A stretch of 64,000 bases of DNA, taken from Mizuhopecten yessoensis (taxonomy: Eukaryota). Shown here piece by piece: positions 721-35,032 of this stretch; the first letter of the stretch is position 1, and each line of letters opens with the position of its first letter. Location: positions 604,154-668,153 of the forward strand of contig NW_018405386.1 in assembly GCF_002113885.1 (NCBI RefSeq). The letters run 5' to 3'. The position numbers and the translations under genes are program-made. Below the pieces are notes generated by a model. The model saw only the letters and a program-made list of their open reading frames with translations, made no database searches and was not told the origin of the DNA.

Positions 721-3700
721 TTATCTGAACAGGTGATTGTCAGGGTCAGGCTGCACTAAGGTGGCCTCCTGAAGGGTGGTATCTGTGTCCCTCCAACAGC
801 TACCTCGACAACTGACCACAAGTACTGTCCCAAACTCTGTCGCTGGTTCTGTAAAGCAGCAAACATCACTCAATTGAAATTTATGTTAAAGGGAGACAAC
901 TCAGTATGTGTAATCATGAATAACCGTGCAAAATAGAGTTTATCTCATAGTCCTGGATGTTTCACCAAGCCCTTTCTCAGTTACCCTAGTAATAACCCTG
1001 TTATAAACCTAAGGGGGCTACCATGAAATGTGGGATCAAAATTTTGCGATGAGCTTCTTGGAGATATATAATATCTTGGAAAATGAATTTGACAGCCCTG
1101 AGAAGCGGACTTTTCAACAAAATGAGCTTAATGCCTAGAAAATTGTAATCCATTTCAAATTTGATCAAAAGGGCAACTACCAGGTAATTTTCCTGTACAC
1201 AAGTTATTGCCCACCTGCATTAATTCTGTTGAAGTAAAATCATTTTGCAGTTTTAACAATCATATTTGCCCAGTGTATCTCACCAGTTTGCTTTCTGAAT
1301 TCTTAGAAACATGATTCTCATCATTGTTAATTTCAATGAAAACTAACGTTATTGAGAGAGTTTTTTCTAAATCTAACAGCTACAAGAATATTCATGTTGT
1401 AAATTACTAGAAGTAGACAAGGAAAGAACTCCAGAAAATAATTCCCATTATGAAGAAAGTTGACTGCTCACCTGTCGTGTCTCGAATACGGAGGAAGTTG
1501 ACCAATGCTGGCAGCAGCTGTAATTCATACATGGCTTGACCTCCACACTGACCACATGTGAGTGCTGTGGCCATCTTAGGGTCAGGCCGAGAAATGTACA
1601 GAGGATTTCCATTCCACTGATACCTATAAATACAAGACACATTTTGGAGAAAAATATTTCATGACTAGCATTATGGATAACACAGGCTAGCTCATTGAGC
1701 AATGTATAAATTCTGACTCTACCACAGAGTGATGGTACCATGCCTATTAAAACATTACTAGGGTGATTGGGCTCACACATTCAATTTATAATGATAACTT
1801 GTTACTTCAACTTCTAATTGAAATTTTTAAAGAGGGAATTTGGCAGATATTTATAAATACATTACATTGTATTTAGTTGGATTTACATTCAAGTCAGAAC
1901 ACATCAATACAATTTTATAGAAAAAAAAATCTCGGATGACATTCAATTTCTAATACAATGAAAATAAAAGGAAGCATGGAAAAGATCTGCTATCAAAATA
2001 ATGATCAATCAATAATATTCAGGTATGATAAAGTCAATATCAACGTTTTACTTCATACACCAAAAGTTTATGTATTAAACATGTCACAACATTTCAAGAT
2101 TGACTGGCCAGGGTCCCTTTGTCAAGCTTTGGCTGAGTGAGCAGGTTTGGTTGTTTACCTGTACAACGATGTGATGAAAAATGTTGATTTCATGTCAATC
2201 GACACAGGACGTTTCGCCTTTTGACAGAAATGTGTGAACAGACTATATAGAAAAGGTTACTAATAAAGTCGAAATTTATAGTATTCGACAAATTGATCAT
2301 GTACACAGAGAAAGTATAATTACACCATTATCAGATCTTCTCCGTGCTTCCTGTTACATTATATTATGTGTTATAAACTATCTACCACATCACAGATTTG
2401 GTGACATCATGTACTGTATTCGTCTGTATACCAAGAATCTGTCGCTTAGTCAAATATTCGCCTTTCACTATTAAAATAAATATTCACCCATAGTTAATTT
2501 CCCCCTTACATGTGTAATTACAGTACTATATAGGCTATGCTGTGTACTTATATTTGTTATCATGATAAATTTGCCCCCCCCCCCCCCTTGCGGAAGGTGA
2601 AAATGACGAAAATTAAAGAGCGGCAAAAAATTCCTGGTATACAGTAATAGGATACTTCTGACAGAGCTATTTGAACAAATTCTGAAGAAGGATGTACATT
2701 GTATACATGTCCAAAACTCAAGAATATTCAGAGATTTTTATACAATTTTATCAATACATTAAAACTCCTGTAAACATTGATCAAAAAAATTAATTTCAAA
2801 TTCTGTTTTCTTCAGTCTTCTTATAAAGAGCAAGAGGCCGAACGCAGAAGAAAAATCCTGTTTCTGCACAGAGCCGTACATAAATGACCTCATATGATCA
2901 TGCAGTGGAGTACAGCAGGTCTATACTGGGACAAGCACAGGAAAGGGTGGGTGGACAGAGGATCACTGAAAAATGTTAAATGTAAAAAATATCTACTGAC
3001 TTACCGTATACATTGCTGTGGACAGGCGGCTATCCTCTTGGTGAATTTGTAGAAATATTTATCGCCATGGACGACATGATCCTCCTCGTATGTTTCACCC
3101 CCTCCCTTGGACCTGCAAATTAGAGCACTGATTACTTAAATGATGTTTAAATGAATACAAGAAGCAGATACAGAAAAAAAGGTTGCTAAAAGTAAAACTA
3201 CAGCAAATATTCCTATTTATGACTAACTTATGGAGAGTAATATAATCAAATGCTGAAACTGTAATTATTGAATCTTAAAAACAGGGAAGTGGTAGTTATA
3301 TTAGCTTCAAAGTGAAATGGCTTATCATTATCTCCCAGTTCCCAAATATGTAGCCGATAAAAACCAGAAAATTACAGACTGAGAATTTGATTGCCAGTTG
3401 GCCATGTTGTTTATCCGATCAGTCTCAAAAGTTGCTATGCACAACTAAGGACCAAGGGGAACCTACATATAAAATTTGAGAAAGATCCCTTTGGTGCTTC
3501 CTGAGAAATAGCGATAACAAGAATTGTTTAAGGACAGACGGAAAATGGACGCAGGGCGATTTGAATAGCCCATCATCTGATGGTGGGCTAAAAAGAAGCT
3601 TTTTGACAATTTAACACCTACCTTCCCTTCTCTGCAGGTAATGGATCAAAGTCCCCACGTTCCTTTTGCCGATAATTTCGGATAAGGTCCTGTATATGAC

Positions 3701-6700
3701 TAGTACTTTCCTCCACATTTTCTGGTTCGTAAAATACACTGATATAATAGGATTCAAATATTTGTCCTTCATTGCCATGGCAACTCTCTACAGCACTGGT
3801 TTGACCTTGACCTTTGCTATTTTGATTTGGTGCTTTCCTTACTAATAAGTTCATCATTTCTTTAACACCTTCTTCCGTAACTTTCAAAGTGACACTGTCT
3901 GTATCCATGACAATATTTGAATCAGATTTTTCGGAATCACTGTCATCAAAATCGTGAACATTTAATTGTGCCATTTCTCCTTGGAGATCATTAGATCCTC
4001 CTGTTGATAACAGCTCTTCCTGATCTTGACTGAGGCTAGAATTACAGGACATTTCCGATAAATTTACATTTCCTACTGCACTTGATCCTACCACCACATC
4101 TGTCCAACTTGTCCCAAGGTCATGCCCTGTATTGACATCTGACCTCTCACCCTTGACTTCAGTCTTACTCATGGTGTTCCCTGCCAGGAAATTATCACTC
4201 CCTGACCCAAAGTCATCAGTTCCAGTCTCCCAATCATCTGCATCCACTCCCCAGTCGTCAGCAGCCACACCCCAATCTTCCGACGTAGCACTTGGTTTTA
4301 CTTTCTCTGGCTTTTTCGCCTTGGTAACAAAACTCTCATCCAACTTCTGAGATCTTACAGTTGTCCAACTAAAATTTATAGAATTTAAAAGTTGCATAAA
4401 TTCCTTTGCTACCTTTGCATCATTATCACTTATACAACTACTGTACATCCGTATCTGTCTAATGAAGAAGTCCTTATATAAATACCTTTACAATATATAT
4501 CATTTATGTGTTAAAGGATCACTGTCTCTCTGCAGGCAAAACATCAGAGAATTCCAGTGTAGTTTTTCATACATACACTAACCTGTCTTTAAATTCATTT
4601 TGGCAGCAGTACCAGGATTCTTAAGTGAAAAAATGACCTTTTGAGCAAAATCAATACCTATGAAATATGTGCTTTGACATGATTTGTTTTAAGTAGAAGA
4701 TGTCATTTTGAGTTCAATTATCTTCTGTTGTAAGCTTCAGATGCCAGACTTTCACATGGTTATTGTCTGGCATACAAGTTCCATTAAAAATTAAATGGTT
4801 GAAAAGAAATAAAGATGGTAAAGTTTCTTTTCAAACATAGCATTGATTGCAGTAGATGAAATTTTGTTCTAAGCCGATGCTTCCTCGGTACACCTGCTAC
4901 CCCAGATTTAGAGTCAATGCCTACCTGTCTGGTTTTCCCCAGCATGTCTTGTAGTGACAGGAAAACAGATAGAGGGTTCGGTGGTATTGGGAACCCTCTA
5001 ATGGACAGTATAGTTGAACAGCAAGGGACATAAATCTCCCACAGCACCGACATGTTGGTATTTTACTTCCAGGAACAACCCAATCCTGTAACGAGAGACA
5101 TGGACAGTTTTAACAAAGTAAATGTTATAATTGAATAGAAATTTTCCTAGAAATATTAAAAACTTTGTCACAGGTCTGCAATTTTTTTAAATTACATATA
5201 AATTAACATTAAGACACAATTTGATATCAGGACATACAAATCAGTAGGAAGTACACTGGGGGTAGTTATCATGTCTGTAAAATTTCGCTGAAATCGTCCC
5301 AGTACTTGAGGAAGTGTTTCCTGATAAGGATTTTTCAACAAAGTGCAATAACTCCATGAAAAGAGTCTGAATGAAAAAATACTACCTAGATGCACAATGT
5401 CATGGTGGTTCCCTATCTGTAAACTTTCGTTCGGAATGGACCCAGTAGTTTAGGGGAAACTTCCAGACAAGGATTTTTCAACAAAGCGGCATAACTCCAT
5501 AGAAAGTGCCTAGCCTTGATTTGAGCTCTTATCAGACAGATCCATGGTCAGGTACCGGACAGGTATAACTATGAGTTTGATGTAAACCTGTCAAACGTTG
5601 TACCGCCCAACTCTCTCCAGCCATTCCTCTCCAGGTCTCAGGAGTCAGCACCTAGTTAATAGCTGTTGTTAATGATAGTTATAATAGTGACAGACCTGAC
5701 AGATCACAGGGATTTGACCACATGCAGGTGCTGGAGACCCTGATATAATGTGTATAAACACATCATAGCAGTGTGTCAAATACTATATGATTTATAGCTG
5801 CGATAAAGTAACTGTTTGACGACGAGAGAATTTTTGCGTCACACATCATCATCATCTTCCTGGACAGAAATTAACTTCATGTGGAGTNTCCTGATCGATT
5901 GGTTTAAATCTAACGGAATGCAAGCCAACCCAGATAAGTTTCAGGCAATTTATTTTGGAAAAAATCAAAATGATTTAACAAATTTTGAAATTGAAGGAGT
6001 AAAAATTGACTGTGAAGAAAATGTAAAGCTACTTGGAGTAAATATAGATTCAAAATTAAATTTTAACCAACACATCTCAGAGCTATGTAGAAAAGCCTCA
6101 AAACAGTTGGCGGTACTCAAGCGAATTGGAAACTCCTTACCAAAAAATGTAAAAATGTTAATTCTCAAATCCTTTGTAATGTCAAACTTTAATTTTTGTC
6201 CTGTTATTTGGCACTTTTGTAATAAATCTAGCACAAACAAGATGGAAAAAATCCAGGAGAGAGGACTACGTTTTGTACTAAATGATTATATCTCAGATTA
6301 CAAGGATATTTTATCGAGCACAGACTCATATTATTTACATATTACTCGCATGAAACTCATTGCTTGCAAAGTTTTTAAAATTGTTAATAAGTTATCTCCT
6401 GACTACCTACAAGAAATAATAAATATAAAATGTTCATCTTATTCATTTAGGAATGAAAATACAGCACAGCTTCCAAGGGTCAACACCACCAGGTATGGAA
6501 AGAGGTCCTCCCGCTATGAGGGCGCCCGCATATGGAACAGCCTGCCGAACGAATTGCGTAAAGTGGAGAACTACTCCGAGTTCGGCAGACTGATATGTAG
6601 GTGGGACGGGCTAGAGTGCGGATGCACTTTATGTGTTGGTTAGCGTTTCTGGCTACCTATTTTTCCTGCTTTGTATGTGTCCTGTGCTGGCTGAAGTGTA

Positions 6701-7366: not shown

Positions 7367-7557
7367 CCTTACATCCCACGTGAGTTTTAGAGACGTGCCA
7401 GATTATTATCCAATCAGAAAACAAACACATATGTTCGTCTTCTATATTGACCAATCATTGATCACGATATATTCATTCCGGCGAATTTATTATTTACTTC
7501 CGCAAGGTGCACGTTCGGTGAAGATGTGAGATGTAAATGAAAAAAGAACTTCGAAGT
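7367..7557. promoter_or_regulatory. Compact bidirectional promoter shared by PDCD2L and MLST8
   Basis: Divergent start codons 191 bp apart; CCAAT boxes at 7410 and 7451, E-box CACGTG at 7377-7382, ETS-like ACTTCCG at 7496; no obvious TATA box. Confidence 0.75.
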
Positions 7558-10500
7558 ATGAGTGGGTCTAACGGTAACACTGATCCTGTGATCTTGGCCA
7601 CTGCTGGATATGATCACACGATTAGGTTCTGGCAGGCCCACAGTGGGATCTGCTACCGAACTGTACAGCATCCAGACTCTGTATCCTTTTAGTTTTAGTG
7701 TTGATGAAATTACTTCATATCAAGTTGACCAGTCATAGTTAATTTTTCAGTCAGTATAGTCTAGCTGTGTTTTAACGAAATTTACAAAGTAACTTTTCTG
7801 TTTTAAAAGGTGTTATCATGAAGAATAATGTGCATTTCATAGTACATAATAAGCTTCAATCATTAGATACTTAAAATGTGGTTATAAATTGACCCCAAAA
7901 TGACAGATATGTGAACTTGTGTATGTTTTGACCTTTCAATTTTCAGGGAGTGTGTTATTTGACTCATGCAATTGCTAAATGACAAGTGTTAACTGAAAAC
8001 CCTGTATGCATAATACATGCAACGTAACTGAATGATGATATTAGGGAAACAATCATCTTCTTTTTACAAATAAGATTGTGTTCTGACTACGATAAGATTA
8101 CAACACAATTAATCATATATTTGTTATTAACTGAAACAAAGTTTAAATAGACTTAACTGACCTTATGAATATTGCTAGAACAAATAAGACAATTATTCCT
8201 GTGCTTGATAAATTTTCTATGTAAAATTATAAGCTTTAACAGTTTCCAGCAGGTCAATGCATTGGCAATAACACCAGATAAACAGCTAATAGCTGCTGCA
8301 GGTAAATAACATTTTGTTGTAAAGCTATTAAAATGTGTTACTTATATTTAACTTGTATATATATAATTTTAAAATGAAAATACTGGTAAAAACATATTTT
8401 TTAACATGTGTAGTTCCATTTCATTTTGTTATCATCACAGTAAGTGTCCTGTATATATGAGATAAATATATAATGCATGTCATGCATACAAAGTAAGTAC
8501 TGTAAGTTATATTTTAGTGAAATAATATTTTTTTGCATTACAGGATATCAGCACATACGTATGTATGATCTTAACTCTAACAATCCAAATCCTGTCATCA
8601 ACTACGAGGGTATTTCCAAAAACATCACAGGTGTGGGATTTCAGGAGGAGGGCAAGTGGATGTACACTGGCGGAGAGGATAATAACGTCCGAATCTGGGA
8701 CCTCAGGTAAAACATTGATCATACCTGTAAAGGTAATATTATTCCATTCAATATACCCGGTAAACATCAATACCTGTCAGTGTCTCTTATGGACCAGCGT
8801 TAGATGTATCCTTTTAAACTGGTGATTTAATTGCTTTCAATATGAAAAGAAGACAAAATTTTCATATTTTTGGGGTCTTCTGCATTTTTTCATTTCTGCT
8901 TCAAAAAAGCTATAGATAGTATTTTTTATTAACCCCCATATTTATAACTTTTTAAAGCATAGAACTTTGGAAGGGATCCCACTAAATCCATTTTGACTTT
9001 ACAAACACCCTGTTTAATTTGAAAAGGACTCCATTTATGACACAACCAGCGCTAATACTGATATGATTAGAAATGGTGTAACTGCAAACAGTGTAAACAT
9101 TTACACCTGGAAATTACCTTTTATAACATCAGGTGAATATTGGCACCTGTCATTACACCAGGTATCAAACATATAATGTGCAAACCCTTCCAATATAGTG
9201 TGTCTGGGTGCGACGAATCACCGAAACGGACCGAATCGGAACCGAAACGGACNGCCACAAGTATTTTTTATGCTGTGATAAGTATGGATTGCTCATTTAA
9301 ATGGACAACTTTATCAATATTTTAAGCATTTAATAAATTGAAAATAATATCAAAATGAGCCAAGAAATCCAACGGAGAAAAAATTAATAAAAGGGGGAAA
9401 TTAACGTAACGTATAAAAAAATGCGATGTCTCGTCACTGCATTATGATATAATTGCCTTTCTAATGTATGAAGATCTAGTCATGTGCTTGTATTTATATA
9501 ACATAGATACATGCATTATTGTATGTATTTGGCATATATAATATACACAATATATAGGCCTACACGACAAATAAAGAAACACAGCTCAAATTTACCAAAA
9601 AAAAACACATTTACAATTTCGTTTCGGTTCCGATCGGGGTCCGTTTTGTTCACACACAATCTAAACTGTATTGAATTCCCTTAAAATAGCTTATGGTTTC
9701 CATTTCGACTCCGTTTCGTTTTAGTTTCGGTCCGTTTCGGTTCCGTTTCGGTGATTCGTCGCACCGGTGTATATCAGGACATTTTACTACAGTTTAACTC
9801 TTTCCTTTACACACTCCATAATGAGGGCAAGTCTACTTACCTTGACAGTAAATGTAAATACACACCATATTATCCATTGTCATTACTTATGAAAGGCAAA
9901 AAAATCATTCAGGGCAACTTTGGAATTTACCAGTTAGGGTGGAAGTTTGACTGGGCAAAAGTTGGCCGGTATACAATATCAGTTGAATATTTATCTATGT
10001 TAATATCTCAGGTATACATTTTACAACCACTAGTACCAGGTAAAAAGAAAATCGTTGATACCTGTCACTACCTGAGAAAATCATTGATACCTGTCACTAC
10101 AAAAATCATTCACATCAAATGGTACTTAAGGTAAAACATTTCAGTTCCTTGCAGTCGGGTAAAGTTTAATACCAGTCAGCATTAATTAAACCAATATCTT
10201 AGGAAAACATTTATACGTGACAATACTATTACTACAGATATCTCTGATTTTGTATTCTGTTCAGATCCAGAAATCAACAATGCCAAAGACTGTTCCAAGT
10301 GAATGCCCCAATCAACTGTGTCTGTCTCCACCCCAATCAGGTAAGTATAAGATAGATAATGAAAACCAAGAAATGATATTTTATCAGAGATAGGTACCGA
10401 TGTACAAAATTGACAGAATACAATGATGTATACAGTTAGTAAATTGTTTTGGAACATTGAAAAATCGTTTATAGATTTGATTAAAAACATTCATTTTATT

Positions 10501-13500
10501 TACTACAGTAATTTGCATAAATATTTTATCATTGACCGATTCTTTGGAGTTCATGAAATGTAGGTCAGTTCGAAATATATTTTTGCTTGACTGACTTTTA
10601 TAAGACTTTGCTTTAAGCTTCATTTCTTTGGTTAGATTTGCTTTAAGCTCTATTTCCAGCAAAAGAGGGGAGTGGGGCATTTGTGTATTACAGACATCTT
10701 CTAGTGGCAGAATCAAATTTTAGCTTTGAAAATGGCTCAGAACACTAACCAGTTTTAGTCTGATTCTCTCGTCAATCCAATGTTAAATACTGTCCAAAAA
10801 GTTTAATTACGCTATGCTTACTTTCTATTGCACTCTAAAACTTTTATGTAGATATGGAGTAATAAAAATACCTAGAAGTAGTTCAATTACTGATGTGCTC
10901 CTTGATTAACTAGCCTAGTCCTAACAATTGCATATTGTTTTTAAGGGAGAACTTTTCATCGGAGACCAGAGTGGATCCATCCATATATGGGATTTGAAGA
11001 CAAACAACAATGAACAGCTGGTAAGTAGTCAGTGAGGTGTATTGCAATGGATTAGTCCTTTGTGACTGTCAATGTAAAGCTCTTATGTTATCTCAAAAGA
11101 TAACCATTGCCCTGTATTCCTCATCATCGGTAACCCTCGATAGTCTCGTTCTGTACCCTCACTTATTCGAGCTTGGTTTGGTTTGGTTTTATTGCGTTTA
11201 GCATCCTATTAACAGCTAAGGGCTTTTAAGGATGTATCTCCATTTATGTGTTTGTGCTGGAGGGGTATGATGGTGTAGTTCCTCCTTTCGTACTTAATTT
11301 ATGAGTGCATGCCGGAGGAAAGGTACGTTGATGAATTTTCCTCAATGCAATAGCGCGGTTTTTATGCTGACTTCAGGGACTACCTCACTGAAATACCATA
11401 CCGAAGGCACCTTGCACAGTTTTCCACCCATTCACATTACACTGCCAACAAGTCAACTCAGATGTTGTAACTACCCTAAATGCTGAAGGTTTAGTGGAGA
11501 TTAACAACTTCCAGTTTTAAGGACTTGGTATGTCTCAGCCTGGACGCTGGACTCGCTGCCTCCCCCTCCTCGGTAAACACTCAACACCTTGGCCAAAAAT
11601 GAGGTTTTTGCCAAGCAAGGCACTAGGAAACAAAAGGTTGTTAGAATGTGAAAAGAAAATGTAAAGATCCCAAAAGTTGCAGTGGGTACAGCAGATTTAT
11701 TTTGGTCGCTTTTGTTATAGAGGTCACAAAAGCATATTCCAGATCTTGTGGGGGTCCCACCTTAGTCGCCTCTTACAACATGCAGTGGGCAACAGCAGGT
11801 ATATTCTTTTCTCGCACCTCAGACAGAGATATCCCACGTCATACTTCATGCTAGATTTTTCTATCGGACTACGTTTTTACACGGAAGCATTCAAATGTAG
11901 CTTAAGTAGTGAAAAGGTCATCGTCATTTGAGGCTCAAGGTGGGATGCTTTTAGTTTTTTGCAAATCTGAATAGTTTTTTTCGAAATAAAAGTTGCGAGA
12001 ATATAAATCTATTACCTGTAACTTAGCGAGATCGGGTTATCTCAGTCTCGGGCTAAGATTCTTCAACATCCCAACCTTGGCGTCTTAACCCTCGACAGAG
12101 ATAACCCGATCTCGCTCAGTTACAGGTCATAGATTTTATTATTCTCAGTCCCTGACTTACTCAAGCTATAGATAATCAAACATTGGAAACCAACAAAGTT
12201 TATTCCCGGCTATTTGTTGTAACAGATACCAGAACCAGACGCCTCCATCCAGTCTATCAGTATTGACCCAATGGGAACGATGATGGCTGCTGTCAATAAC
12301 AAGGTGAGGCTAAATTCTATAAAAAAAAAAAAGTTGTATAGAAATTCAAAAGTCATACATCTTACATGGCAAGTTTAGTAATTTTATGCTGTCCTCAATA
12401 ACATCTGTATCTGTATCTGTATATATACTGGAAATTAGCTCACTCCAGGGTTAGTGAGTTTGCTATATCAATCTTAGTCAATTTTGGTCACAATAGTGGC
12501 CTTAAATTGTTCCGTTGTTTTACAGTTGATTATGTGCGATGGTAGTGCATTCCAGTCTTTTATGGTAGAAGGTACAAATGAGTTTTTATATACATGTATG
12601 TCGGTGTTACAACTAAGCACTTTGATGGATTTACTGTGCTGTTTTCTGGTATTAAACCTGATTAGCAAGTCGGCGGGTATGGCCAGGAGGCCGTGAACTA
12701 TTTTGTAGAGTAACACTAAACGCTGGTCTTGCCATTTAAGTTCCTCCATCATTTTGGATACGCTTCTGTATCTGCTGTAATCATTGCACACAAAGCGGCA
12801 GCACGTCGCTGTATCCCTTCTAGACGGTCTATGTCCTTTTTCTGGTAAGAATCCCATACAACAGAAGCATAGTCGAATATAGATCTGACCAGTGAGATAT
12901 AATGATGATATTTGGGCAAAGGTTTTCATTTGAGTTTATAGAGAAGCAGAAAAAAAGTACTTTAGTTCATCACAATTTACTGAAAAAGTGTAGTATAAGT
13001 AGCGGATCTGGATTCGGGATCAAGACCATATATCATTTAATAAGTATAATTTGAATGGCAGATCCGACCCAAGTTGATCGTAAACGTGTAATTCTATAGC
13101 AAATTTTGGCTATTTAGTGAGTGGCGGTTTGGTGAGATGGATGGATAAGTTTGTTTAAATATGACATATTATAAAAAAAAAATCAAAATTCTTCATGCTA
13201 ATAATTGTTGAGATACTTAATTTTGAAAATTTCTACAGTGTAAAGTTCGTCTCTGATATTGTGTTGGTCTTATTGCATCATTGTGGGAGAATCGTGTTGT
13301 TTTTTTTGGATGAAGAAATGTTAAACTAAATAAGTATAGTATTTCATTATCAACTTAAAAAAATAAATTTAGAAACATCACCTCACAGCAGTGATTTCCA
13401 AACCCATACATTTTCCCTTCTTTTCTTTTGTTACAATAAACTAAAACTAAGACAAGAAATCAGGGCTAAACTAAAAATAGGACAGGGAGAGAGGATTATG

Positions 13501-16155
13501 TTGAGATCTGTTGATAATAACTAGAATTTACCTTTCACAGTGCTGTTGTTACATTTGGACACTGACAGGAGGGCGGGGAACAGATCCCACCCAACTCCAC
13601 CCAAAAACCAAGTTTGAGGCTCACGGTCGATACGCTCTCAAATGTTTGTTCAGCCCAGATTCTACGTAAGTAATTGTGGAAGTAATTCAGCTCTGGAATA
13701 AGAAATTGCAATATACATTTATAAATCATTTTCTTTCTAATTTAAATACATTCTGTATGAAATATACATGTACAGTGTGGGTTAAGTTTGTGAAGTTTTA
13801 AACCAATGTCAGATGTGCATAAATGATCTTTTTATACCCCCGTCGAAGACGGGGACGTATTATGTTATCACGTGAGCGGGCGGGCGGGCGGGCGGGCGGG
13901 CGGGTGGGCGAACGATGTCCGCTCGATATCTCGAGTAATTATGAACGGATTAACTTCAAACTTCACAACAAGGTTAATTACCATGAAACCTTGGACGAGT
14001 TCGATAACCGCCATTATCCGACCATAATTTGTGGAGTTATGGTCCTTTATGGACTTGCTGAAACAGTGTCCGCTCGATATCTCGAGTAATTATTAACGGA
14101 TTAACTTCAAACTTCACAACAAGGTTAATTACCATGAAACCTTGGACGAGTTCGATAACCGCCATTATCCGATCATAATTTGTGGAGTTATTCCCCTTGG
14201 TTTCATTAATGCGATGCATGCGTTCCATGATGTTGTATTGCACTCATTGATCTACAAGTTATGTTGAATGATTTCTCTTAATATCAATTACTCACAAATA
14301 CTTCATATATTTCAATCATACAAACAACTGCTCATTCAATGTGTGGCGGGCGTATTATATACCGCCCGCGGTAACCTTGTTACAGAAAGGAATACAGTTA
14401 AACCTCGTTATACTGTCACCATTTGTGAAGAAAAAAAATTGGTGATGAATTATAAAGGAAAAAACATATACAGGTCAACAAAAAGAGCATAAGAGACTCT
14501 CAGATATGTTAGCAGTGAGGAAGGTAGCAAATGGAACAAGGATATCATATTGAGGTTTTACACTACACACAACATCAATTCTGTGGAAATTGAAAGGTAA
14601 AGTACAGGCTGTATTATGAACTGGATGAGTTTTCTTCTCTAGGTTGCTGGCTACCACCTCTGCCGATCACACAGCCAAGATCTGGCGGACGGCAGACCGC
14701 ACCTTGATGACCGAACTCAGGGACAACACTCAGCGATGGGTGTGGGACTGTGCCTTCAGGGCGACTCACAAAACCTCATAACAGGTAACACACTGGGAAC
14801 TCAGGGACAACACTCAGCGATGGGTGGGGGACTGTGCCTTCAGTGGCGACTCACAATACATCATAACAGGTAAAACACTGTAAACTTGGGGACAACACTC
14901 AGAGATGGGTGTGGGACTGTGCCTTCAGTGGCGACTCACAATACATCATAACAGGTAATACACTGTGAACTTAGGGACAACACTCAGCGATGGGTGTGGG
15001 ACTGTGCCTTCAGTGGTGACTCACAATACATCATAACAGGTAACACACTGAACTCGGGGACAACACTCAGCGATGGGTGTGGGACTGTGCCTTCAGTGGC
15101 GACTCACAATACATCATAACAGGTAACACACTGTGAACTCCGGGACAACACTCAGGGATGGGTGTGGGACTGTGCCTTCAGTGGTGACTCGCAATACATC
15201 ATAACAGGTAACACACTGAACTCGGGGACAACACTCAGAGATGGGTGGTATAGTGTGCTTTTTAAAAATTGCAACTCTTATCACATCATATGAGTAAATG
15301 AACAGAAACATCCCTGTTATGCCTTTTCAAAGAATTTTCAATTAACTTTTACATGCTAGATTTCATCAGTCATCATTCTCTGATAGGTAAGAGAATCATT
15401 TACGTAGTTTTTATTTTTGAAATATTTGGAAGAGAGATAGTTTGATAGGACTATTACCTGTCAGTTGTGTTGTACATAATTCAAATCCTTCAAAGATCCA
15501 GAAAAACTCTGAAATTTGGATTCCACAAGATGTTCTGAAGAAAATAATTCCTTTCATTAAATTCTCAACATTCTATTTGTTGATAGTCAGTATCAAAGTG
15601 TCACCTTCTTTCCTCGCAGTTGACATTTGATGTCCTTGTGTGAAACTGCCTTACAACCTCCCACTCCTCGCCTTTCATCATTTATTGAACAGTTCTTATA
15701 CATTTCTTTGTCTCTACTGGCCAATGTCGACTGAGATCTAGAGACTTAAATAAGTTTGAAATTTATCGTGCTTGTGGGCTAGGTGTCAAATTCATTCTTG
15801 GGCACAACTGACTTTGGACCTTTTAACAGGGTCTTCTCAATTGTATCCATTAGAGGCTGATAGATCTCTTGTTTACGTGTCGATTTGTTTAAAAAATGTT
15901 TTAAGGTGAACTTTAAGAGGTATAAGAGACACCTTTGGGAAGTTGCCACTACTCTCTAATAAATCAATTTGTAGTTCTCACTTATCATAAAGCTAATATT
16001 TTTATGGATTTCTTTTTTATTTCTCTTCCACAGCATCTTCAGACAACACTGCTCGACTCTGGAGTGTAGATACTGGCGAGGTAAAGAAGGAATACAGCGG
16101 TCACCAAAAGGCTGTGGTTGCCATGGCGTTCCGGGACGAAATTGTTGTTCATTGA
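7558..16155 (+). CDS. MLST8: Target of rapamycin complex subunit LST8 (WD40), 9 coding exons; exon 8 has a 1-nt frameshift as assembled
   Basis: Exons 7558-7680 ([30 protein letters not shown]...), 8250-8301, 8544-8706 ([17 protein letters not shown]...), 10265-10340, 10946-11020, 12226-12303, 13541-13665, 14643-14784, 16034-16155 ([10 protein letters not shown]...[14 protein letters not shown]). Closely matches human mLST8 as recalled. Summed length 956 nt, one short of an intact 957-nt frame. Confidence 0.93.
7681..8249 (+). other. U12-type (minor spliceosome) GT-AG intron 1 of MLST8
   Basis: Donor GTATCCTTT matches the U12 consensus; branch-like GCTTTAAC at ~8233-8240, about 10 nt before the CAG acceptor, with no polypyrimidine tract. 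Confidence 0.85.
9207..9765. mobile_element. Non-autonomous DNA transposon (MITE) with 24-bp perfect TIRs and subterminal CCGAAAC repeats
   Basis: GGTGCGACGAATCACCGAAACGGA at left and TCCGTTTCGGTGATTCGTCGCACC at right; only an imperfect flanking duplication. Confidence 0.8.
11175..11820 (-). mobile_element. Degenerate SINE-like element
   Basis: (AAACC)n tail and CTGTTAATAGGA 3' motif shared with the SINE at 58856; GTAAGAGGCGACT core shared with 27330-27590. Confidence 0.6.
12004..12137. repeat. ~135-bp near-perfect inverted repeat (foldback/MITE-like)
   Basis: AAATCTATTACCTGTAACTTAGCGAGATCGGGTTATCTC... pairs with ...GAGATAACCCGATCTCGCTCAGTTACAGGTCATAGATTT. Confidence 0.8.
12402..12810 (-). 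mobile_element. Degenerate CR1-like LINE 3' fragment
   Basis: [22 protein letters not shown]...LLYKIVHGL...[17 protein letters not shown], typical LINE ORF2 C-terminus; (TACAGA)n tail at 12402-12422. Confidence 0.8.
13829..14381 (+). mobile_element. Helentron/DINE-1-like non-autonomous element
   Basis: Starts TTTTTATACCCC with a small hairpin, then (GCGG)n microsatellite, ~150-bp internal tandem duplication, and a 3' palindrome GCGGGCGTATTATATACCGCCCGC followed by CTTGTT. Confidence 0.75.
14713..15247 (+). repeat. 83-85-bp tandem array made of the 3' end of MLST8 exon 8 plus its donor site (6 full copies and 1 partial)
   Basis: Unit GAACTCAGGGACAACACTCAGCGATGGGTGTGGGACTGTGCCTTCAGTGGCGACTCACAATACATCATAACAG|GTAACACACTGT; copies start at 14713, 14797, 14882, 14967, 15050, 15135, 15218. 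Confidence 0.95.
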
Positions 16156-24312: not shown

Positions 24313-27300
24313 TCAGTCGAACACAGCTCCACAGTTTGGACACCGTCTTTGTCTCATAGCTAGGCAACACAGAACTCCGAGGGGGAAGAAGAGAATGGCA
24401 CACAGTACCCCGAGACAAGTGTAATCTTCTTCCAACACTCCAACCTGTCAACACAAAGGAATATCTTTGGTCAAAAATATGGTTTACAGTGTCCAATTTT
24501 TATTATTTATTAATTGGTTCATTTCTGCCAACACCCAAATTATGTACACATATTGATTAATTTAAGTTTATCTGCAATATGAAACATAACATTTAAGTAT
24601 CATATATATTTATAAAACAATCTACTACCACTTTCGGTAAGCTGTGGTATTTGGAACCAAAATGGGGTACCACAATGACCAGTCTACGACTGGTAAAACA
24701 CAGCCTCATATCCGGTGATAAGCCCACCCCCACTTCAGACATTTTTTCATGTACAGTCCCCCTGGGCTTATCACCAGTAAAATAGTTCGGTAAGAAAAGA
24801 AAGTACATTTGGTAATTATGACCAATAGATACACAAAGAATATTGAAGAGATTAAAAGTTTTATTTTGTTAGGCAATAAATGATGAGGACAATAAGTAAC
24901 AAAATTGAATAAGCAACAGTACGTCAAAATCATGGCAATTATTCATATCATGTTATATTTGTGTACATTGGTCAACATTATTGTGTAATTTTCTTATAAA
25001 ATGCCCAGCAATGACACTCGCCTAAACAACAGATACATTTCAGACTATGCCAGTCAAATCTTATCAGTTATAAGTGCCTTGATCCCTAACACCCCATACA
25101 ATTATCTCTGGAAAAGCCCATTTTTTGACGATGTTGTACCTTAAGCTGGAAAATAATCATGATACCTGTGTATACTTTCACTTCTTTTACTACAATCACC
25201 CAGGGGTGTAACAATTTCATATTAAGATTACTAGTCCAGAGGCATTTTTTGAAAAATTCTAACACCACCTATATTTTTACAATAATTTCACAAGCCCAGA
25301 ATTTATACACCCTTGATCTGACACCAGTTACCAAAACTATAACAACATGAAAGATATGAAATTATTATGATACACAATAAAGTCTAATGACTTACCCTAC
25401 AGGCTGGACAGCCTCCCACAATGACCACATTAGGAGCTCTGTCCCCACCTCTACAACTTGACCAATAACTAATCACATACCCTACCGGCTGGACAGCCTC
25501 CCATAATGCCCACCTGTGTCACACGGTCCCCACCTCTACAACTTCACCAATAACTAATCACATAACCTACAGGCTGAACAGCCACCAACAATGCCCACCT
25601 GAGGGGGGCCGTCCCCACCTCTACAACTTCACCAATAACTAATCACATACCCTACCGGCTGGACAGCCTCCCACCATGCCCACCTGTGTCACCCTGTCCC
25701 CACCTCTACAACTTGACCAATAGCTAATCACATACCCTACAGGCTGAACAGCCTCCAACAATGACCACCTGAGGCACACTGTTCCCACCTCTATAACTTG
25801 ACCAATAACTAATCTCATACCCTACAGGCTGGACCGCCTCCCACAATGCCCAACTGTGTCACACTGTCCCCACCCCTACAACTTGATCAATGACGTACCC
25901 TACAGACTGGACAGCCCGCCACAATGCCCACCTGTATTAAACTGTAGTAGCAGTGTATAGCCCACTTTACATGTTCAATACATGTATAAAACTGTGGATT
26001 TTTAGCTCTGCTTATAGAACGGTCCAAGTGTGTTGGTTTATCGTGGACAGCCTCCCACAATTCCCACCTGTGTCACACTGCCCCCCCCTCTACAACTTGA
26101 CCAATAGCTAATCACATACCCTACAGGCTGGACCGCCTCCCACAATGCCCACATTAGGAGCTCTGTCGCCACCTCTACAACTTGATCTATTACTTACCCT
26201 ACAGACTTGACAGCCTCCCACAATGACCACCTGTGTCACACTGCCCCCACCTCTACAACTTCACCAATAACTAATCACATACCCTACAGGCTGGACAACC
26301 TTCCACAATGCCCACCTGTGGCACACTGTCCCCACCTCTATAACTTGACCAATAACTAATCACATACCCTACAGGCTGAACAGCCTCCAACAATGACCAC
26401 CTGAGGCACACTGTCCCCCCCTCTACAACATGACCAATGACTTACCCAACAGGCTGGACAGCCTCCCAAAATGACCACATTAGGAGCTCTGTCCCCACCT
26501 CTGCAACTTGACCAATAACTAATCACATACCCTACAGGCTAGACAGCCTCCCACAATGACCACCTGTGTCACACTGCCCCCACCTCTACAACTTGATCAA
26601 TGATTTACCCTACAGACTGGAAAGCCTCCCACAATGCCCACCTTTGACACACTGTCCCCTCCTCAACAACTTGATCAATGACTTACCCTACAGGCTGGAC
26701 AGCCTCCCACGATGACCACCTGTTGAGCAGGCTGTTGTTGGACAACTACATTGCTAGTATTACTGTAGCTTTGATACCCCTGGTTGTACCCAGCCTGCTG
26801 TGGGTTGTTGTAGGGGGCGCCAGTGTTATTGGTGTATGGGTTGCCAGTGTAGGCTCCTGCAGGAGGTCCTGCAGGGTTGGTATAACCTCCCTGGGGCTGC
26901 TGTGGTCCCCCAGGATACTTCCCTTGTTGGGGGTATTGAGGAGCTGCTCCAGGGGCTGTTCCATAACCTGTTTACGAAAAAACGAAAAAAAAATCATTTG
27001 TTGAATTATCTTTAAGTCAGATAGCTACTGAAATTATGACCTTATGAGTCATCAGATGTATAATTAAACAGTTTAAAAGTAACTGCAAATTTGAGATTTA
27101 ATGATCTAGAGCAGTATAGAACCATATATCAGGTTTTACAGTGGCTTATTACAATGTGTGAATGAAGTACACCATAAGTTATATAAGTGTAGTCATATAC
27201 AGAAAGGAAAGCTATCATCAAGTGAAGAGTACTGGTACATGTAGTCAGTTCCTGATACTGGAGAAGGAATGTGGAGGATGAGGATAACAACCTAACTTCT

Positions 27301-29610: not shown

Positions 29611-32600
29611 ATGGAGGATTACATCAAAATTGAGAAAATTGGTGAAGGTGCGGTATTGCTAAGAACTATTAAACAAAATAATCAGTAATAAGGGGAAAAT
29701 ATAAACGTCATATTTAAAACTGAGATCAGTTATCAACAGTTCATAAAATTAATAATTTAAGATTAATAATTTACGTAGTCCTGTATTCGGTGTCGGGTCG
29801 TTTCGGGACATGTCAAAAGTCGTTTCGTTTTTTTTTTGTTTTTTTTTAAATTTGAACAATCGATTGGATAAAAGTTATTGCAACTTATCATAACCTTCTC
29901 CCGTCATACATTTATACATTTACCATGATTTTAATAAAACATGAATAGATAATGCACAACATTGGATTTGATAAATTGATTCACATGTCTAAAATATAGT
30001 CTATGTGTCTCACGTTTTTACTTTCGTGAAATTTGATTTCAATATAGCAAAAACAAAATGTTTAAAACATTGTTAGAATCGTCTTAATGTCAATAATGGA
30101 GAATATAGGCTACATTCACTATCCGGTTGAAACGGTTGAACCTGTAAAGAAAACGACAGGTACAGGTTTGGACCAAGGCTGACCTCACGAAAATTTGGTA
30201 CGTGTAGATTGAGGGGTCCAGACGTACATGACTGAAACTAAAATGCTGACTATTGCCAAATTGCGTTATTTCTTTCTAAAACAATGTCAAGCCACATGTA
30301 GTTTTTAAGATACATTATGTAATTCAGTGGACGCATGAAAGAAGGGCATAATATTCTTGATACATTGTTTTTTTATTCTCCGAAAGTGTGGATTTTTAGC
30401 TCTGCTTATGGAACGGTCCAAGTGTGTTGGTTTATCGTGGAAATTTTTTGTGCCACACGTAACATTTCAACCTGGATACGCGAATGTAGCCATAGTGAAT
30501 TGAAAACATATTACATGTATTACAATATCAACCTATTAATAACGAAAGAAATTGAATTTTGAATTTTATAAGTTCCTCTAGATCTGTATTTAAAAATGAG
30601 ATTAGTTTCACCAGGTAACAATTAACACACTGTTAATCAGGTAAATGTTGGTAGGTATCCCCTCAAGCTCTAGCAGTCACGTAACACTAATCAACCCAGG
30701 CACGGGTAGGTTGTGACGCAGGTCATAGACTGAATCCATATTTGTGTACAGGACTTTTTATGAAATGGGAGGGAAATGTAATTTAAAAGTTATGAAAATT
30801 TTATATGTCCCGAAACCACTTGTTACCGAAACAACCTGTTACTGAAACGACTAGCATTCCTGTATTTGAAAGACAGTCATCTAGCTGTCATTAACTACCA
30901 TGGTGTCTTGTTTATATTTAAAGAAGTGTTCAGAGTATGGTTGCATTTGTACAGTCTATCCCACATTATGAAGTTGATCGGATTTTAGGATACTGACGTA
31001 TATGTCTATCTATCTATCTATATGTTACACTCCACAGAGACCCAAAATGGTTTTAATGTATGTAGACATATTCCACCACAGCCAGGTTCATTATAATTTT
31101 GTCATTTGCAATTAACCAAAATATTGCAAATGTATAAGCTGACAGTGTACAGTACATGAAAAGATAAAACCATGCAGCAAATCAAAACATGGTGTTAAAG
31201 GAATTATTATATTAATACCATTTTAAAAATATGTTCCTGGGTGGATTTAAGCAAACACATTTTATTATAGAGCTGTCGCGATATTCCTCGCACTTAAGCA
31301 CTTAAATTTTCAAATTTTGTGTTTGAGCGTTTTCATTTATTGTTTGGCTTGCCAAATCTATAAAAAAAAGAGTTTGCTTTTTAACAAATAACCTGAACAT
31401 GAGATACTTATAACACACTGGTAGAAAAAGAAATGATACAATGAAATCATCGTTTATGTTAACAGGAACTTATGGAGTTGTATATAAAGGCCGACACAAA
31501 AAGTCAAACAGAACTGTTGCATTGAAGAAAATCCGTCTGGAGAGCGAAGAGGAAGGCGTGCCATCCACCGCAATCCGAGAAATATCGTTGTTAAAAGAAT
31601 TGCAGCATCCCAATATTGTAGGGTATGTTTTTGTGTGGTGCTTGATGCAAGATACCATCAACCTGTATATGACAGGAGAAAATTATTATTCATTTATCAT
31701 TGTCATTTGACCATTGACATCCTGAGTCATATGACAGCACTGATAAAATGACGTCACAAATTAAATATTACTCAATTATTTGATTACTTTTATTCCTTAT
31801 ATACTTCTTTTTTATCTGCTTCAAAACGTTCTGTTACAGATTTTAAAATGATAAAAAAAATGAATGACCGACATCAGCTTGTGAATTACCTCATTGTATT
31901 CAAAATTCAATGACTGTTGCTTGAACAATCCTCTTATCTCTTGTATATGGATGAAACATCTGTTCATTCTTGGCTCTCTCAGTTAAAGACATTGGTTCTC
32001 AATGCAGCCAATGAAAACAAAATGCAGATGTTTAGAATTTAATCATTAAAAGCAATAAACAAGTCATGCCAGATATCACCTCTGTATGTTTCGGCTTATA
32101 TGGGATTCCTAAAGAATCAGGGCCTTTCTTCTCTATCTTCTGTTCACAGAACATTGCAAAAAACTAAAAATGATCTGTTGTACTTATTTCAACAATTTGT
32201 GAACCTTTCATTTCAATGCATCTTGTAACAGCTGTTATGTGTTGTGAAACATCAACCCTCTCCTAAAGAGTACCACTGGTTTTAATTGATATTTTTTGTA
32301 ATAATGAATGTTTCGAAAAAGAGATTCAGAAATATTTGCCAAATCTTTATGAAACCTTGAAAAAAACCTCAGAAAAGTTTAATCAGTTGAATACCATTGG
32401 TCAATTGTAATTGTAAAACCAAGTACATGGAACAAAACATGGAGAAAGGAGGGTAAAAACACACATCTTTTATATTTGATTCATTATTTCAAATTGATAA
32501 ATGGTTTCAGACTTGAAGATGTTCTCATGCAAGAAAACAAACTGTTTCTGGTGTTTGAGTTTTTGTCGATGGATCTGAAACGTTACATGGACTCAATACC

Positions 32601-35032
32601 GTCCGGTCAGTTCATGGACAAAATGCTAGTCAAGGTAAGTGTCCCAAGGACAATATTTTTGGCAGAGCTTCTGTAACATCCCAACCTGGACTGAATCAAT
32701 GGCAACAAAGAGTTGTAAACAACTTCCATTTTACACCCCGTTTCATGTGAATGGCATTACCTAGTACCTTTGGATAAAAATGATGTGATGTCATAAAATT
32801 TGAAAATTCAAAAGCCATATTTGGGAAACTGCAGATACTGGGGTATGTTAAATTTGAAAAAAAAGATGATGTTTTAACTGTGTAAGACAGTAGGATCAGA
32901 TTTATTGATTTGTGTGCAAAAGTTTGCAAAATTGGGTTTGGTTAATCTTGTAAGACCACTTTGTTTATTGTGAAGTGGGGTAGTTATGCATTAATAGTAA
33001 TTACCCTTAGCTCAGCTTTAGGTATTACTTGTCTAAATTTCATATCTGGCTCAAGTTAAATTTCCTTATCTTCAACCCACATACGAAGGAGCTTATTATT
33101 CGACCAGCAGCTGAGTAGTTAATACCTGATTTCCTGTTCGTGTTCACAGAGTTACCTGTACCAGATCATGCAGGGTATCCTGTTCTGTCACCAGCGACGA
33201 GTGTTGCACCGTGACCTCAAACCTCAGAACCTTCTCATTGACAATAAGGGGATCATCAAACTGGCTGACTTTGGTCTGGCCAGGGCATTTGGTATCCCTG
33301 TTAGGGTCTACACACACGAGGTAGGTTATAAAAGAATTCACTTTCACATCATAGACATCTCTTTTTTGCTGCAGTCATGATGTAGATAATTTTTGAAAGA
33401 CAGATCTTATTCAAATCAAATCATTCAACCTGTTATTTGTTGATACACTTATATTGTGTCTAATAAGACTGCCTCAGACATCATGTTTTGGGGGCCTTTC
33501 TCTCAATACCTGGATTTTTATGCATGTTCAATTTAAAACAATTCAAATATGGAAAGCAGAATTTCAGGAAAAGAAACCATTCCACAAAGTGTCTGACAGA
33601 TTTAAATTTTACACTCAGAAAATAATGGCTCGCTTTTTTATATAAACTTTACTGATACTAAGTCATGTTGTTTTAAATGCCCATTGTTTACATGGCGAAT
33701 GTTATCCTTGTCTAGGTTGTGACGCTGTGGTATCGTGCCCCAGAGATTCTGCTTGGATGTCAGAGATATTCAACACCTGTTGACATCTGGAGTATAGGTT
33801 GTATATTCGCCGAAATGATCACAAAGCGGCCACTGTTCCATGGAGATTCTGAAATTGATCAACTATTCCGAATATTCAGGTGACCATTTTTGTGCTAACA
33901 TATAAACAGTATTTACTAAAAAATAAAATAAAAAAATATGGAAATCAAGTTTAGACAAAAAATACCTTTACCTACACTTCCTACCAAATCTTTTACATCC
34001 TTGATACTCTAGTGGTTATGCTCTCTGCACCTGTAAAATGTGTCATAGCAAAAAAAAAAGACCTGACCAATTGCTAAGCTGATACAGCTTCATCCTATGA
34101 AGATTACAGAGGAACAACACCTGACTTCAAAATCAGTCAATTTTACTGTTATGCTTGGGTGCGATTCTTTTGATTTACATCAAACTAGTCAATGTCAAAT
34201 TACAATAGGGATTTTCATATTTGGGAATGTATTTTAGTACTATAATGGAAAATTCTACTAGTACTTCTTGGATTTTGCAAGTGCCTGAATGTTTACATTT
34301 GTGATTATCAGGACGCTGACCACACCCACTGAGGAAGACTGGCCTGGAGTGACAAACATGCCAGACTACAAACCAACCTTCCCTAACTGGAGGACAAACC
34401 AGCTGGCCTCTGCGGTCAAACAGCTGGACAACACTGGTCTCGACATCTTACAGGTAAATATTACGACAAAGCTTTAGCACAAGGTACATTTCAGTAAAGC
34501 AATTCTCAAAAGATGTTTTTTTAACTTTGACCTATTCAGCCTTAATTTCATTGGCATGTGAAATATTTCATAACTGTTCTATCATCTGTTGGTAGAACAT
34601 TTTTTAATTGAATTGATTTAAAAACATATATCCCATCCCAGGACTGCAGGGTGTGTTTAGATGTAACACCTTTTGAATTTGAATAATAAAATCAACCGTG
34701 GATAAGAGTCCTGGGCCCGTATTCCTGAATTCGTTCTCGTGCTCAAGCATGGATACTGTGCTCAAACCAACCTTCTTGTAACTCACTTAAATCATGGGCC
34801 GAGGTCTGGAAGATCTTTTATAGGAATAGCCTTTAGCGTTATGACTTGGTAAACTTGTATATTGGAAAAAAATAAATATTTTAAGTTGTTGCAATTTTCA
34901 TTTTTTTTCCAGCAAATGTTGATTTACGACCCTGCATATAGAATCTCTGCCAAGAGGGCGCTGAACCATACCTACTTTGCCAACTTGGACAAGTCCGGGC
35001 TTCCAGCAAACCTCACGGCGCCAACATTTTGA
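29611..35032 (+). CDS. CDK1: Cyclin-dependent kinase 1 (cdc2), 7 coding exons, 304 aa
   Basis: Exons 29611-29647 ([12 protein letters not shown]), 31466-31622 (GTYGVVYK...[19 protein letters not shown]), 32511-32634, 33150-33320 ([25 protein letters not shown]), 33716-33879 ([19 protein letters not shown]), 34312-34453, 34913-35032. Sum 915 nt, frame intact. Confidence 0.97.
29789..30860. mobile_element. Non-autonomous DNA element in the first coding intron of CDK1
   Basis: Inverted subterminal motifs GTTTCGGGACAT (~29800) and ATGTCCCGAAAC (~30806), repeated CCGAAAC units, GG...CC ends flanked by TGTATT direct repeats. Confidence 0.6.

What the first reader, a model, noticed from the sequence alone, without database searches (positions are those of the whole stretch)
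14643..15247. MLST8 exon 8 is frameshifted while five intronic copies keep the correct coding sequence
Seen: the in-exon copy reads TTC AG- GGC GAC TCA CAA AAC CTC ATA (1-nt deletion at ~14760, TAA at 14779-14781). Downstream copies read TTC AGT GGC GAC TCA CAA TAC ATC ATA ACA G|GT ([10 protein letters not shown]), matching the conserved mLST8 sequence. Six CAG|GTAA donors lie at 14785, 14870, 14955, 15040, 15123 and 15208. Inference: either a consensus error within a repeat (quite likely, as mismatches cluster in copies 1-2) or a real null allele that could be repaired by gene conversion or unequal crossover from the array.
Basis: partly seen in the sequence, partly recalled or inferred. Interest (0 to 1): 0.7.

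Follow-up and report, generated by a model that had tools for sequence, protein, structure and literature searches.

The report
Assembly error in scallop mLST8 repeat
The apparently broken growth-control gene mLST8 in this scallop genome is very likely a sequencing error inside a short tandem repeat that straddles an exon end; transcripts from other animals read the gene intact, and the repeat is an ordinary kind already known from human genes.

Summary
The window does lack one T in mLST8 exon 8, and an 85-bp array (6.4 copies) repeats the exon's last 72 bases plus its splice donor. The break is very likely not biological. Spliced contigs from 4 of 4 RNA-type runs (four studies) carry the T and continue into exon 9. 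In 4 of 4 DNA-type runs no contig crosses the site without the T; three show it directly. The deletion lies in a 116-bp patch with five private substitutions, each copying the preceding base, a known Illumina error pattern. No GT-AG or GC-AG splice into a downstream copy gives the observed mRNA. Two public models (246 and 338 aa) are by-products of the error. The array is real in other animals, and contig depth suggests about 1 to 9 units. It is a donor-spanning minisatellite like those of human F7, LMNB2 and PDGF; a second one sits in a BRI3-family gene 10 kb away. Reads of the assembled animal were not identified, so a private allele is not fully excluded. Weak lead: intronic variants are mostly synonymous (5 of 8), hinting at exchange with the exon.

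The parts
7558..7680 (+). mLST8 coding exon 1; followed by a U12-type donor (GTATCCTT)
8250..8301 (+). mLST8 exon 2
8544..8706 (+). mLST8 exon 3
10265..10340 (+). mLST8 exon 4
10946..11020 (+). mLST8 exon 5
12226..12303 (+). mLST8 exon 6
13541..13665 (+). mLST8 exon 7; its end is joined to exon 8 in RNA contigs
   Evidence: loose ends before 14638
14643..14784 (+). mLST8 exon 8: 142 nt as assembled, 143 nt in RNA contigs
14759..14760 (+). Site of the missing T; likely consensus error
   Evidence: T present in 4 of 4 RNA-type runs and shown directly in 3 of 4 DNA-type runs
14759..14874 (+). Patch of six private differences: one deletion and five substitutions (14772, 14775, 14796, 14827, 14874), each equal to the preceding base
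   Evidence: 14772 read as T at full depth in X7 and X10
14779..14781 (+). TAA that is in frame only because of the missing T
14713..15247 (+). 85-bp minisatellite, six full units and a partial seventh; unit = last 72 nt of exon 8, donor and 13 nt of intron
   Evidence: present in DNA runs X1, X2, X7, X10
14785..14790 (+). Authentic donor of intron 8 (first in the array), used in the RNA contigs
14870..15213 (+). Five pseudo-donors at 14870, 14955, 15040, 15123, 15208
   Evidence: minor use not testable with contigs
16034..16155 (+). mLST8 exon 9 (last coding exon, single copy in the genome)

Best explanation
The missing T in mLST8 exon 8 is very likely an assembly consensus error, while the 85-bp repeat across the exon end is real and likely varies in copy number between animals. 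Shown: spliced contigs from four studies run exon 7, exon 8 with the T, one repeat unit, then the first letters of exon 9, which fits the normal 318-aa protein made from the first donor. Inferred: a short-read assembler could not resolve the array and filled the patch 14759-14874 from the poor end of one or a few reads. Inferred: the array arose by tandem duplication of the exon end and changes length by slippage or unequal crossover; the extra donors are mostly silent because the first donor wins, as shown for human F7, and use of a later donor would meet a stop five codons into the intron, 71-409 nt before the last junction, and so likely trigger nonsense-mediated decay.
For: RNA-type runs X13, X15, X12, X16, studies P5, P6, P4, P7: each has one contig matching 14643-14759, then the T, the consensus Y-I codons, the exon end and four letters of exon 9. 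DNA-type runs at 14759: X1 74.1 of 134.4 depth with T, the rest in two contigs that stop there; X10 86.8 of 156.1, rest stops there; X7 9.82 of 9.82; X2 85.4, all stops there; none crosses without T. 14772 reads T at 138.8 of 138.8 (X10) and 9.82 of 9.82 (X7). 5 of 5 private substitutions in copies 1-2 equal the preceding base (P=0.004 at 1/3) against 3 of 9 in copies 3-7; this bias is a described Illumina error (PMC8002175). Read through with X, the model is 318 aa, the length of other scallop proteins. 0 of 126 in-register excisions giving the RNA sequence have GT-AG or GC-AG ends. Core/flank depth: 6.9, 7.1, 8.6, 1.1.
Against: No run is known to come from the assembled animal, and contigs drop rare variants, so a private allele is not excluded. 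DNA contigs anchored in unique sequence stop at 14742, so except in low-copy X7 they cannot assign the T to copy 1; X2 shows no contig with the T. Only four letters of exon 9 are visible. 8 of 17 holding runs were laid. Four of the five substitutions also equal the next base, and the patch limits were chosen after looking. The sequencing platform is inferred. Copy numbers rest on contig mean depth, which the tool warns is no copy number; X7's library type is not on record. Lst8-null flies are viable (PMC10670727), so lethality cannot exclude a real allele.
Confidence: 0.93

Rival explanations
1. A real, rare truncating allele of the assembled animal, probably heterozygous, was written into the haploid consensus; it would give a 276-aa protein lacking the last 42 residues and could revert by conversion from the array.
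For: The animal appears heterozygous in this gene: a second contig repeats 7557-10741 at 99.5-99.7% identity without a 565-bp insertion. Lst8-null flies are viable. Reads of that animal were not identified.
Against: Absent from 8 of 8 runs laid. It needs a deletion and five transversions within 116 bp, all private and all equal to the preceding base. 0 of 11 differences between window and second contig fall in exons 1-4.
Confidence: 0.04
2. The genomic break is real and is bypassed in RNA by splicing from inside copy 1 into an intact downstream copy, as the public 338-aa model P0135 implies.
For: P0135 is reproduced exactly by an extra intron 14740-14869 plus copy 3; 17 GT-AG choices give some open frame.
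Against: Those 17 models use donors at 14740 or 14742, but RNA contigs of four studies match on to 14759. No GT-AG or GC-AG excision gives the RNA sequence; one AT-AG does. Candidate acceptors have 5-8 pyrimidines in 14 against 9-12 for the gene's eight real ones. DNA runs lack the deletion.
Confidence: 0.01
3. The array itself is a mis-assembly, one exon end stacked several times.
For: The assembly is fragmented (82,659 contigs) and has errors here; X7 shows near single-copy depth.
Against: X1, X2 and X10 show 7-9 times flank depth on the unit, unit-to-unit contigs and the array's right junction; X7 too has a unit-to-unit contig and the partial last unit.
Confidence: 0.02

Closest known systems
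Minisatellites whose first unit spans an exon-intron boundary: human F7 intron 7 (37 bp, 5-9 units), LMNB2 (100 bp), PDGF intron 4 (81 bp), CBS intron 13, 6-16 (PMC1557585; abstract, Introduction and Discussion read)
   Same: First unit holds the authentic donor, so the donor is repeated in the intron; polymorphic unit number; the most upstream donor is the one used.
   Different: Invertebrate example; 72 of 85 bases are coding-derived (4 of 37 in F7). Minor use of pseudo-donors, reported for CBS and 6-16, was not testable here.
CBS c.844_845ins68 (PMC2630376; abstract start and passages read)
   Different: The paper calls the chromosome with mutation plus insertion non-pathogenic; recalled, not from a call: a duplicated acceptor lets splicing skip the mutation. 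Here the donor side is duplicated, the copies lack a good acceptor, and the mutation was not found outside the assembly.
mLST8/LST8, WD40 subunit of TOR complexes
   Same: P0001 (318 aa) differs from the X read-through at 9 positions, three in the error patch, and matches solved human mLST8 at E 3.8e-162. Bay scallop LST8 has a 957-bp ORF (PMC11591371, passages), the length of the read-through model.
   Different: Nothing unusual once the error is set aside. Public models P0002 (246 aa, ends in the shifted frame) and P0135 (338 aa, 13 extra residues in this region) follow the error.
Illumina preceding-base substitution errors (PMC8002175; passages read)
   Same: Substituted base equals the preceding base in 5 of 5 private changes; one lies in a GGT context.
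   Different: The paper concerns read errors and says the bias varies by instrument; that such a read set the consensus here is inferred.

Membership tests
mLST8 orthologue | Full-length similarity to LST8 proteins and solved mLST8 | tested here: met
mLST8 orthologue | No other intact copy in the genome | tested here: met
   Exon 9 and the unique part of exon 8 match once; the second exon-3 match is a 2,616-bp near-identical contig holding exons 1-4 only
Real frameshift allele or pseudogene | Lesion present in independent DNA or RNA data | tested here: not met
   0 of 8 runs laid carry it
Real frameshift allele or pseudogene | Lesion present in raw reads of the assembled animal | not testable with these tools
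   All runs listed are coded contig sets
Donor-spanning minisatellite (F7 type) | First unit spans the exon-intron boundary and repeats the donor | tested here: met
Donor-spanning minisatellite (F7 type) | Array exists in independent genomic data | tested here: met
   X1, X2, X7, X10
Donor-spanning minisatellite (F7 type) | Variable unit number between individuals | tested here: inconclusive
   Depth ratios 6.9, 7.1, 8.6, 1.1 point to it, but contig depth is a rough proxy and the low value rests on one run
Donor-spanning minisatellite (F7 type) | Most upstream donor used in the main mRNA | tested here: met
   One unit between unique exon 8 and exon 9 letters in 4 of 4 RNA-type runs
Donor-spanning minisatellite (F7 type) | Pseudo-donors silent or used at low level | not testable with these tools
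   Contigs drop rare isoforms; no raw-read run was listed
Splice-rescued mutation (CBS ins68 type) | Canonical splice that skips the lesion and gives the observed mRNA | tested here: not met
   0 of 126 in-register excisions with GT-AG or GC-AG ends

The most novel reading that the evidence does not exclude
The intronic copies are a live sequence pool for the exon: unequal crossover and conversion keep swapping the last 72 coding bases of mLST8 with the array, so purifying selection on the exon shapes non-coding copies. Signs: a synonymous C/T is shared between expressed alleles (T in 3 of 4 RNA-type runs, C in 1) and intronic copies; 5 of 8 variants in copies 3-7 are synonymous (expected about 0.2; P 0.009-0.024); unit number seems to run from about 1 to 9, giving natural alleles with zero to eight extra donors for testing donor choice in an invertebrate. 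Against: the shared site is a CpG, n is small and post hoc, two of the eight may be errors, and the BRI3 array nearby shows no such excess (5 of 22).
Probability: 0.3. Interest if true: 0.4.

Novelty: not a real feature. Interest (0 to 1): 0.14.

Why it matters
The headline, a broken TOR-complex gene with intronic backups, does not survive. What remains is practical: two public protein models for this gene follow the error, one truncated and one with an invented exon, and studies that draw scallop TOR subunits from public databases could inherit them. The array is a new invertebrate member of a known class; with apparently very different unit numbers between animals it could serve as a marker or as a natural test of first-donor choice.

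Tried and rejected
Splice rescue: enumerated; no canonical excision gives the RNA sequence. Use of donor 2 in the assembled sequence restores frame length, but the TAA comes first. Skipping exon 8 shifts the frame. An intact paralogue: none found. Read-through into the array: RNA-type runs show no cover at 14772-14800, but lack of cover in contigs is not evidence. The Cys at the start of exon 7, where most relatives have Gly, was suspected as a second error; other scallop proteins have it too. Synonymous excess as a general trait of such arrays: not seen in the BRI3 array, 5 of 22. Literature: mLST8 + yessoensis gave 0 papers; searches listed none on this array by title or abstract start; the library lacks most subscription journals and no supplements were read. 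Earlier scan notes: none. No structure was predicted, as it would not bear on the question.

Full report
Observation. The sequence is as described. Exon 8 starts at 14643; an 85-bp array of 6.4 copies runs 14713-15247. Each unit is the last 72 bases of the exon, the donor and 13 intron bases. Copy 1 lacks the T after 14759, which brings TAA 14779-14781 into frame; six donors lie at the stated places. The unit matches nowhere else in the genome (7 of 7 matches are in the array).

The gene. Nine coding exons span 7558-16155. With X at the break they give 318 aa, the length of three scallop-like relatives, which differ at 9-11 positions, three of them in the suspect patch (X/S270, N/Y275, L/I276). 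P0001 matches solved human mLST8 at E 3.8e-162. Of 104 fetched proteins of 280 aa or more, 70 matched the motif pattern and none has Asn at the Tyr position; 34 did not match the pattern. Exon 9 is single copy. A second exon-3 match is a 2,616-bp contig 99.5-99.7% identical to 7557-10741 without a 565-bp insertion, likely the other haplotype. Protein names label the species Mizuhopecten yessoensis.

RNA. 17 of 21 listed runs hold the stretch; I laid 8, on stretches covering copy 1 and at most half of copy 2. Four are RNA-type (X13 on record as RNA; X12, X15, X16 guessed, but their contigs join exon 7 to exon 8). In 4 of 4, from four studies, one contig matches 14643-14759 and its loose end reads T, the rest of the consensus unit up to the donor, then CATC, the first letters of exon 9, where the intron would read GTAA. 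The mRNA therefore has the T, the conserved Y-I codons and one unit, spliced at the first donor. Only four letters of exon 9 are visible, and contigs hide rare isoforms. The Gly codon is GGT in three runs and GGC in one.

DNA. At 14759 all depth is accounted for: X1 74.1 with T plus 60.3 in contigs that stop there; X10 86.8 plus 69.3; X7 9.82 of 9.82 with T; X2 85.4, all stopping there, so X2 shows no T directly. None crosses without the T. 14772 reads T at full depth in X7 and X10. Unique-flank contigs stop at 14742, so only X7, with near single-copy depth, ties the T to copy 1. No run is known to be the assembled animal.

Error signature. Six differences private to copies 1-2 fall within 14759-14874, against five private ones in the other 419 array bases (Fisher P=0.016, limits chosen after looking). 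All five substitutions are transversions equal to the preceding base (P=0.004 at 1/3), against 3 of 9 in copies 3-7; four of the five also equal the next base. Preceding-base bias is a described Illumina error (PMC8002175, passages). I infer that the patch was filled from one or a few poor read ends; the platform is inferred from this pattern and from the fragmentation (82,659 contigs).

Rescue by splicing. Of 126 in-register excisions that give the RNA sequence, none has GT-AG or GC-AG ends and one has AT-AG. Public model P0135 (338 aa) is reproduced exactly by an extra intron 14740-14869 plus copy 3, and P0002 (246 aa) ends in the shifted frame; the RNA contigs contradict both as main isoform. 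As written, the stop would lie 3 nt before the last junction and give 276 aa. Lst8-null flies are viable (PMC10670727, passages), so lethality is no argument against a real allele.

The array. It is real: unit depth over flank depth is 6.9 (X1), 7.1 (X2), 8.6 (X10) and 1.1 (X7), with unit-to-unit contigs and the right junction seen. In X7 entry 8.6, core 9.8, loop 3.6 and exit 7.0 fit one or two full units per haplotype. Contig depth is a rough proxy and X7's library is not on record, so variation is likely, not shown. In an intact exon, later donors would meet a stop five codons into the intron, 71-409 nt before the last junction, which by the usual 50-55 nt rule (established knowledge, recalled) predicts decay.

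Known kind. Human F7, LMNB2, PDGF, CBS and 6-16 have minisatellites whose first unit spans the donor; F7, LMNB2 and PDGF use only the authentic donor, CBS and 6-16 also two pseudo-sites (PMC1557585, abstract, Introduction and Discussion). The same layout recurs in this window: a BRI3-family exon ending at 26687 on the minus strand is followed by 14 copies of its last 36 bases, 13 with a GT donor. I found no paper on this array, within a library that lacks most subscription journals.

Open lead. 5 of 8 distinct variants in the coding-derived part of copies 3-7 are synonymous (expected 0.19-0.24, P 0.009-0.024; 5 of 9 with copy 2, P 0.017-0.044), and the GGC/GGT difference is shared by expressed alleles and intronic copies. 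This fits exchange between exon and array. But the shared site is a CpG, two variants of copy 6 show the error-like pattern, the test is post hoc, and the BRI3 array shows no excess (5 of 22, P 0.71-0.83).

Verdict. The frameshift is an artefact with probability about 0.93; the real remainder is a new member of a known kind of repeat. Interest 0.14.

Noticed in passing
window 25396-26722 (-), exon about 26687-26966, next exon near 24447: A second donor-spanning minisatellite: a BRI3-family exon (PF10164, E 6.5e-6, above cut-off) is followed by 14 copies of its last 36 bases in 78/85-bp units, 13 with a GT donor, interrupted by a short unrelated insert near 25940-26040. The exon end is intact and variants look neutral (5 of 22 synonymous).
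   Followed up: partly
window 7681-8249 (+): Intron 1 of mLST8 has a U12-type donor (GTATCCTT) and a branch-like CTTTAAC at 8234-8240 (consensus recalled). Mouse Mlst8 also has a minor intron (PMC8034651, passages); same position not checked. Public models P0002 and P0003 go wrong around it.
   Followed up: partly
window 9202-9766; L008 (G000:C80515): A 565-bp insertion with terminal inverted repeats in intron 3 is absent from a near-identical 2,616-bp contig: likely a heterozygous MITE-like insertion and a leftover haplotype contig that carries its own 123-aa public model, P0003.
   Followed up: partly
window 13541-13543 (+): Exon 7 starts with Cys where the non-scallop relatives printed have Gly; other scallop proteins share the Cys.
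   Followed up: yes
window 5807-6643 (+) and 12474-12935 (-): Open frames that look like C-terminal fragments of LINE-type reverse transcriptase proteins (recalled resemblance); no Pfam match at E 0.001.
   Followed up: partly
window 31414-35032 (+): Exons of a CDK1-like kinase (PSTAIRE motif, recalled; Pkinase E 8.5e-14 for the first exon).
   Followed up: no
window 3618-5109 (-): Exons of a gene head to head with mLST8; the text resembles PDCD2-like proteins (recalled); no Pfam match for the two frames scanned.
   Followed up: no
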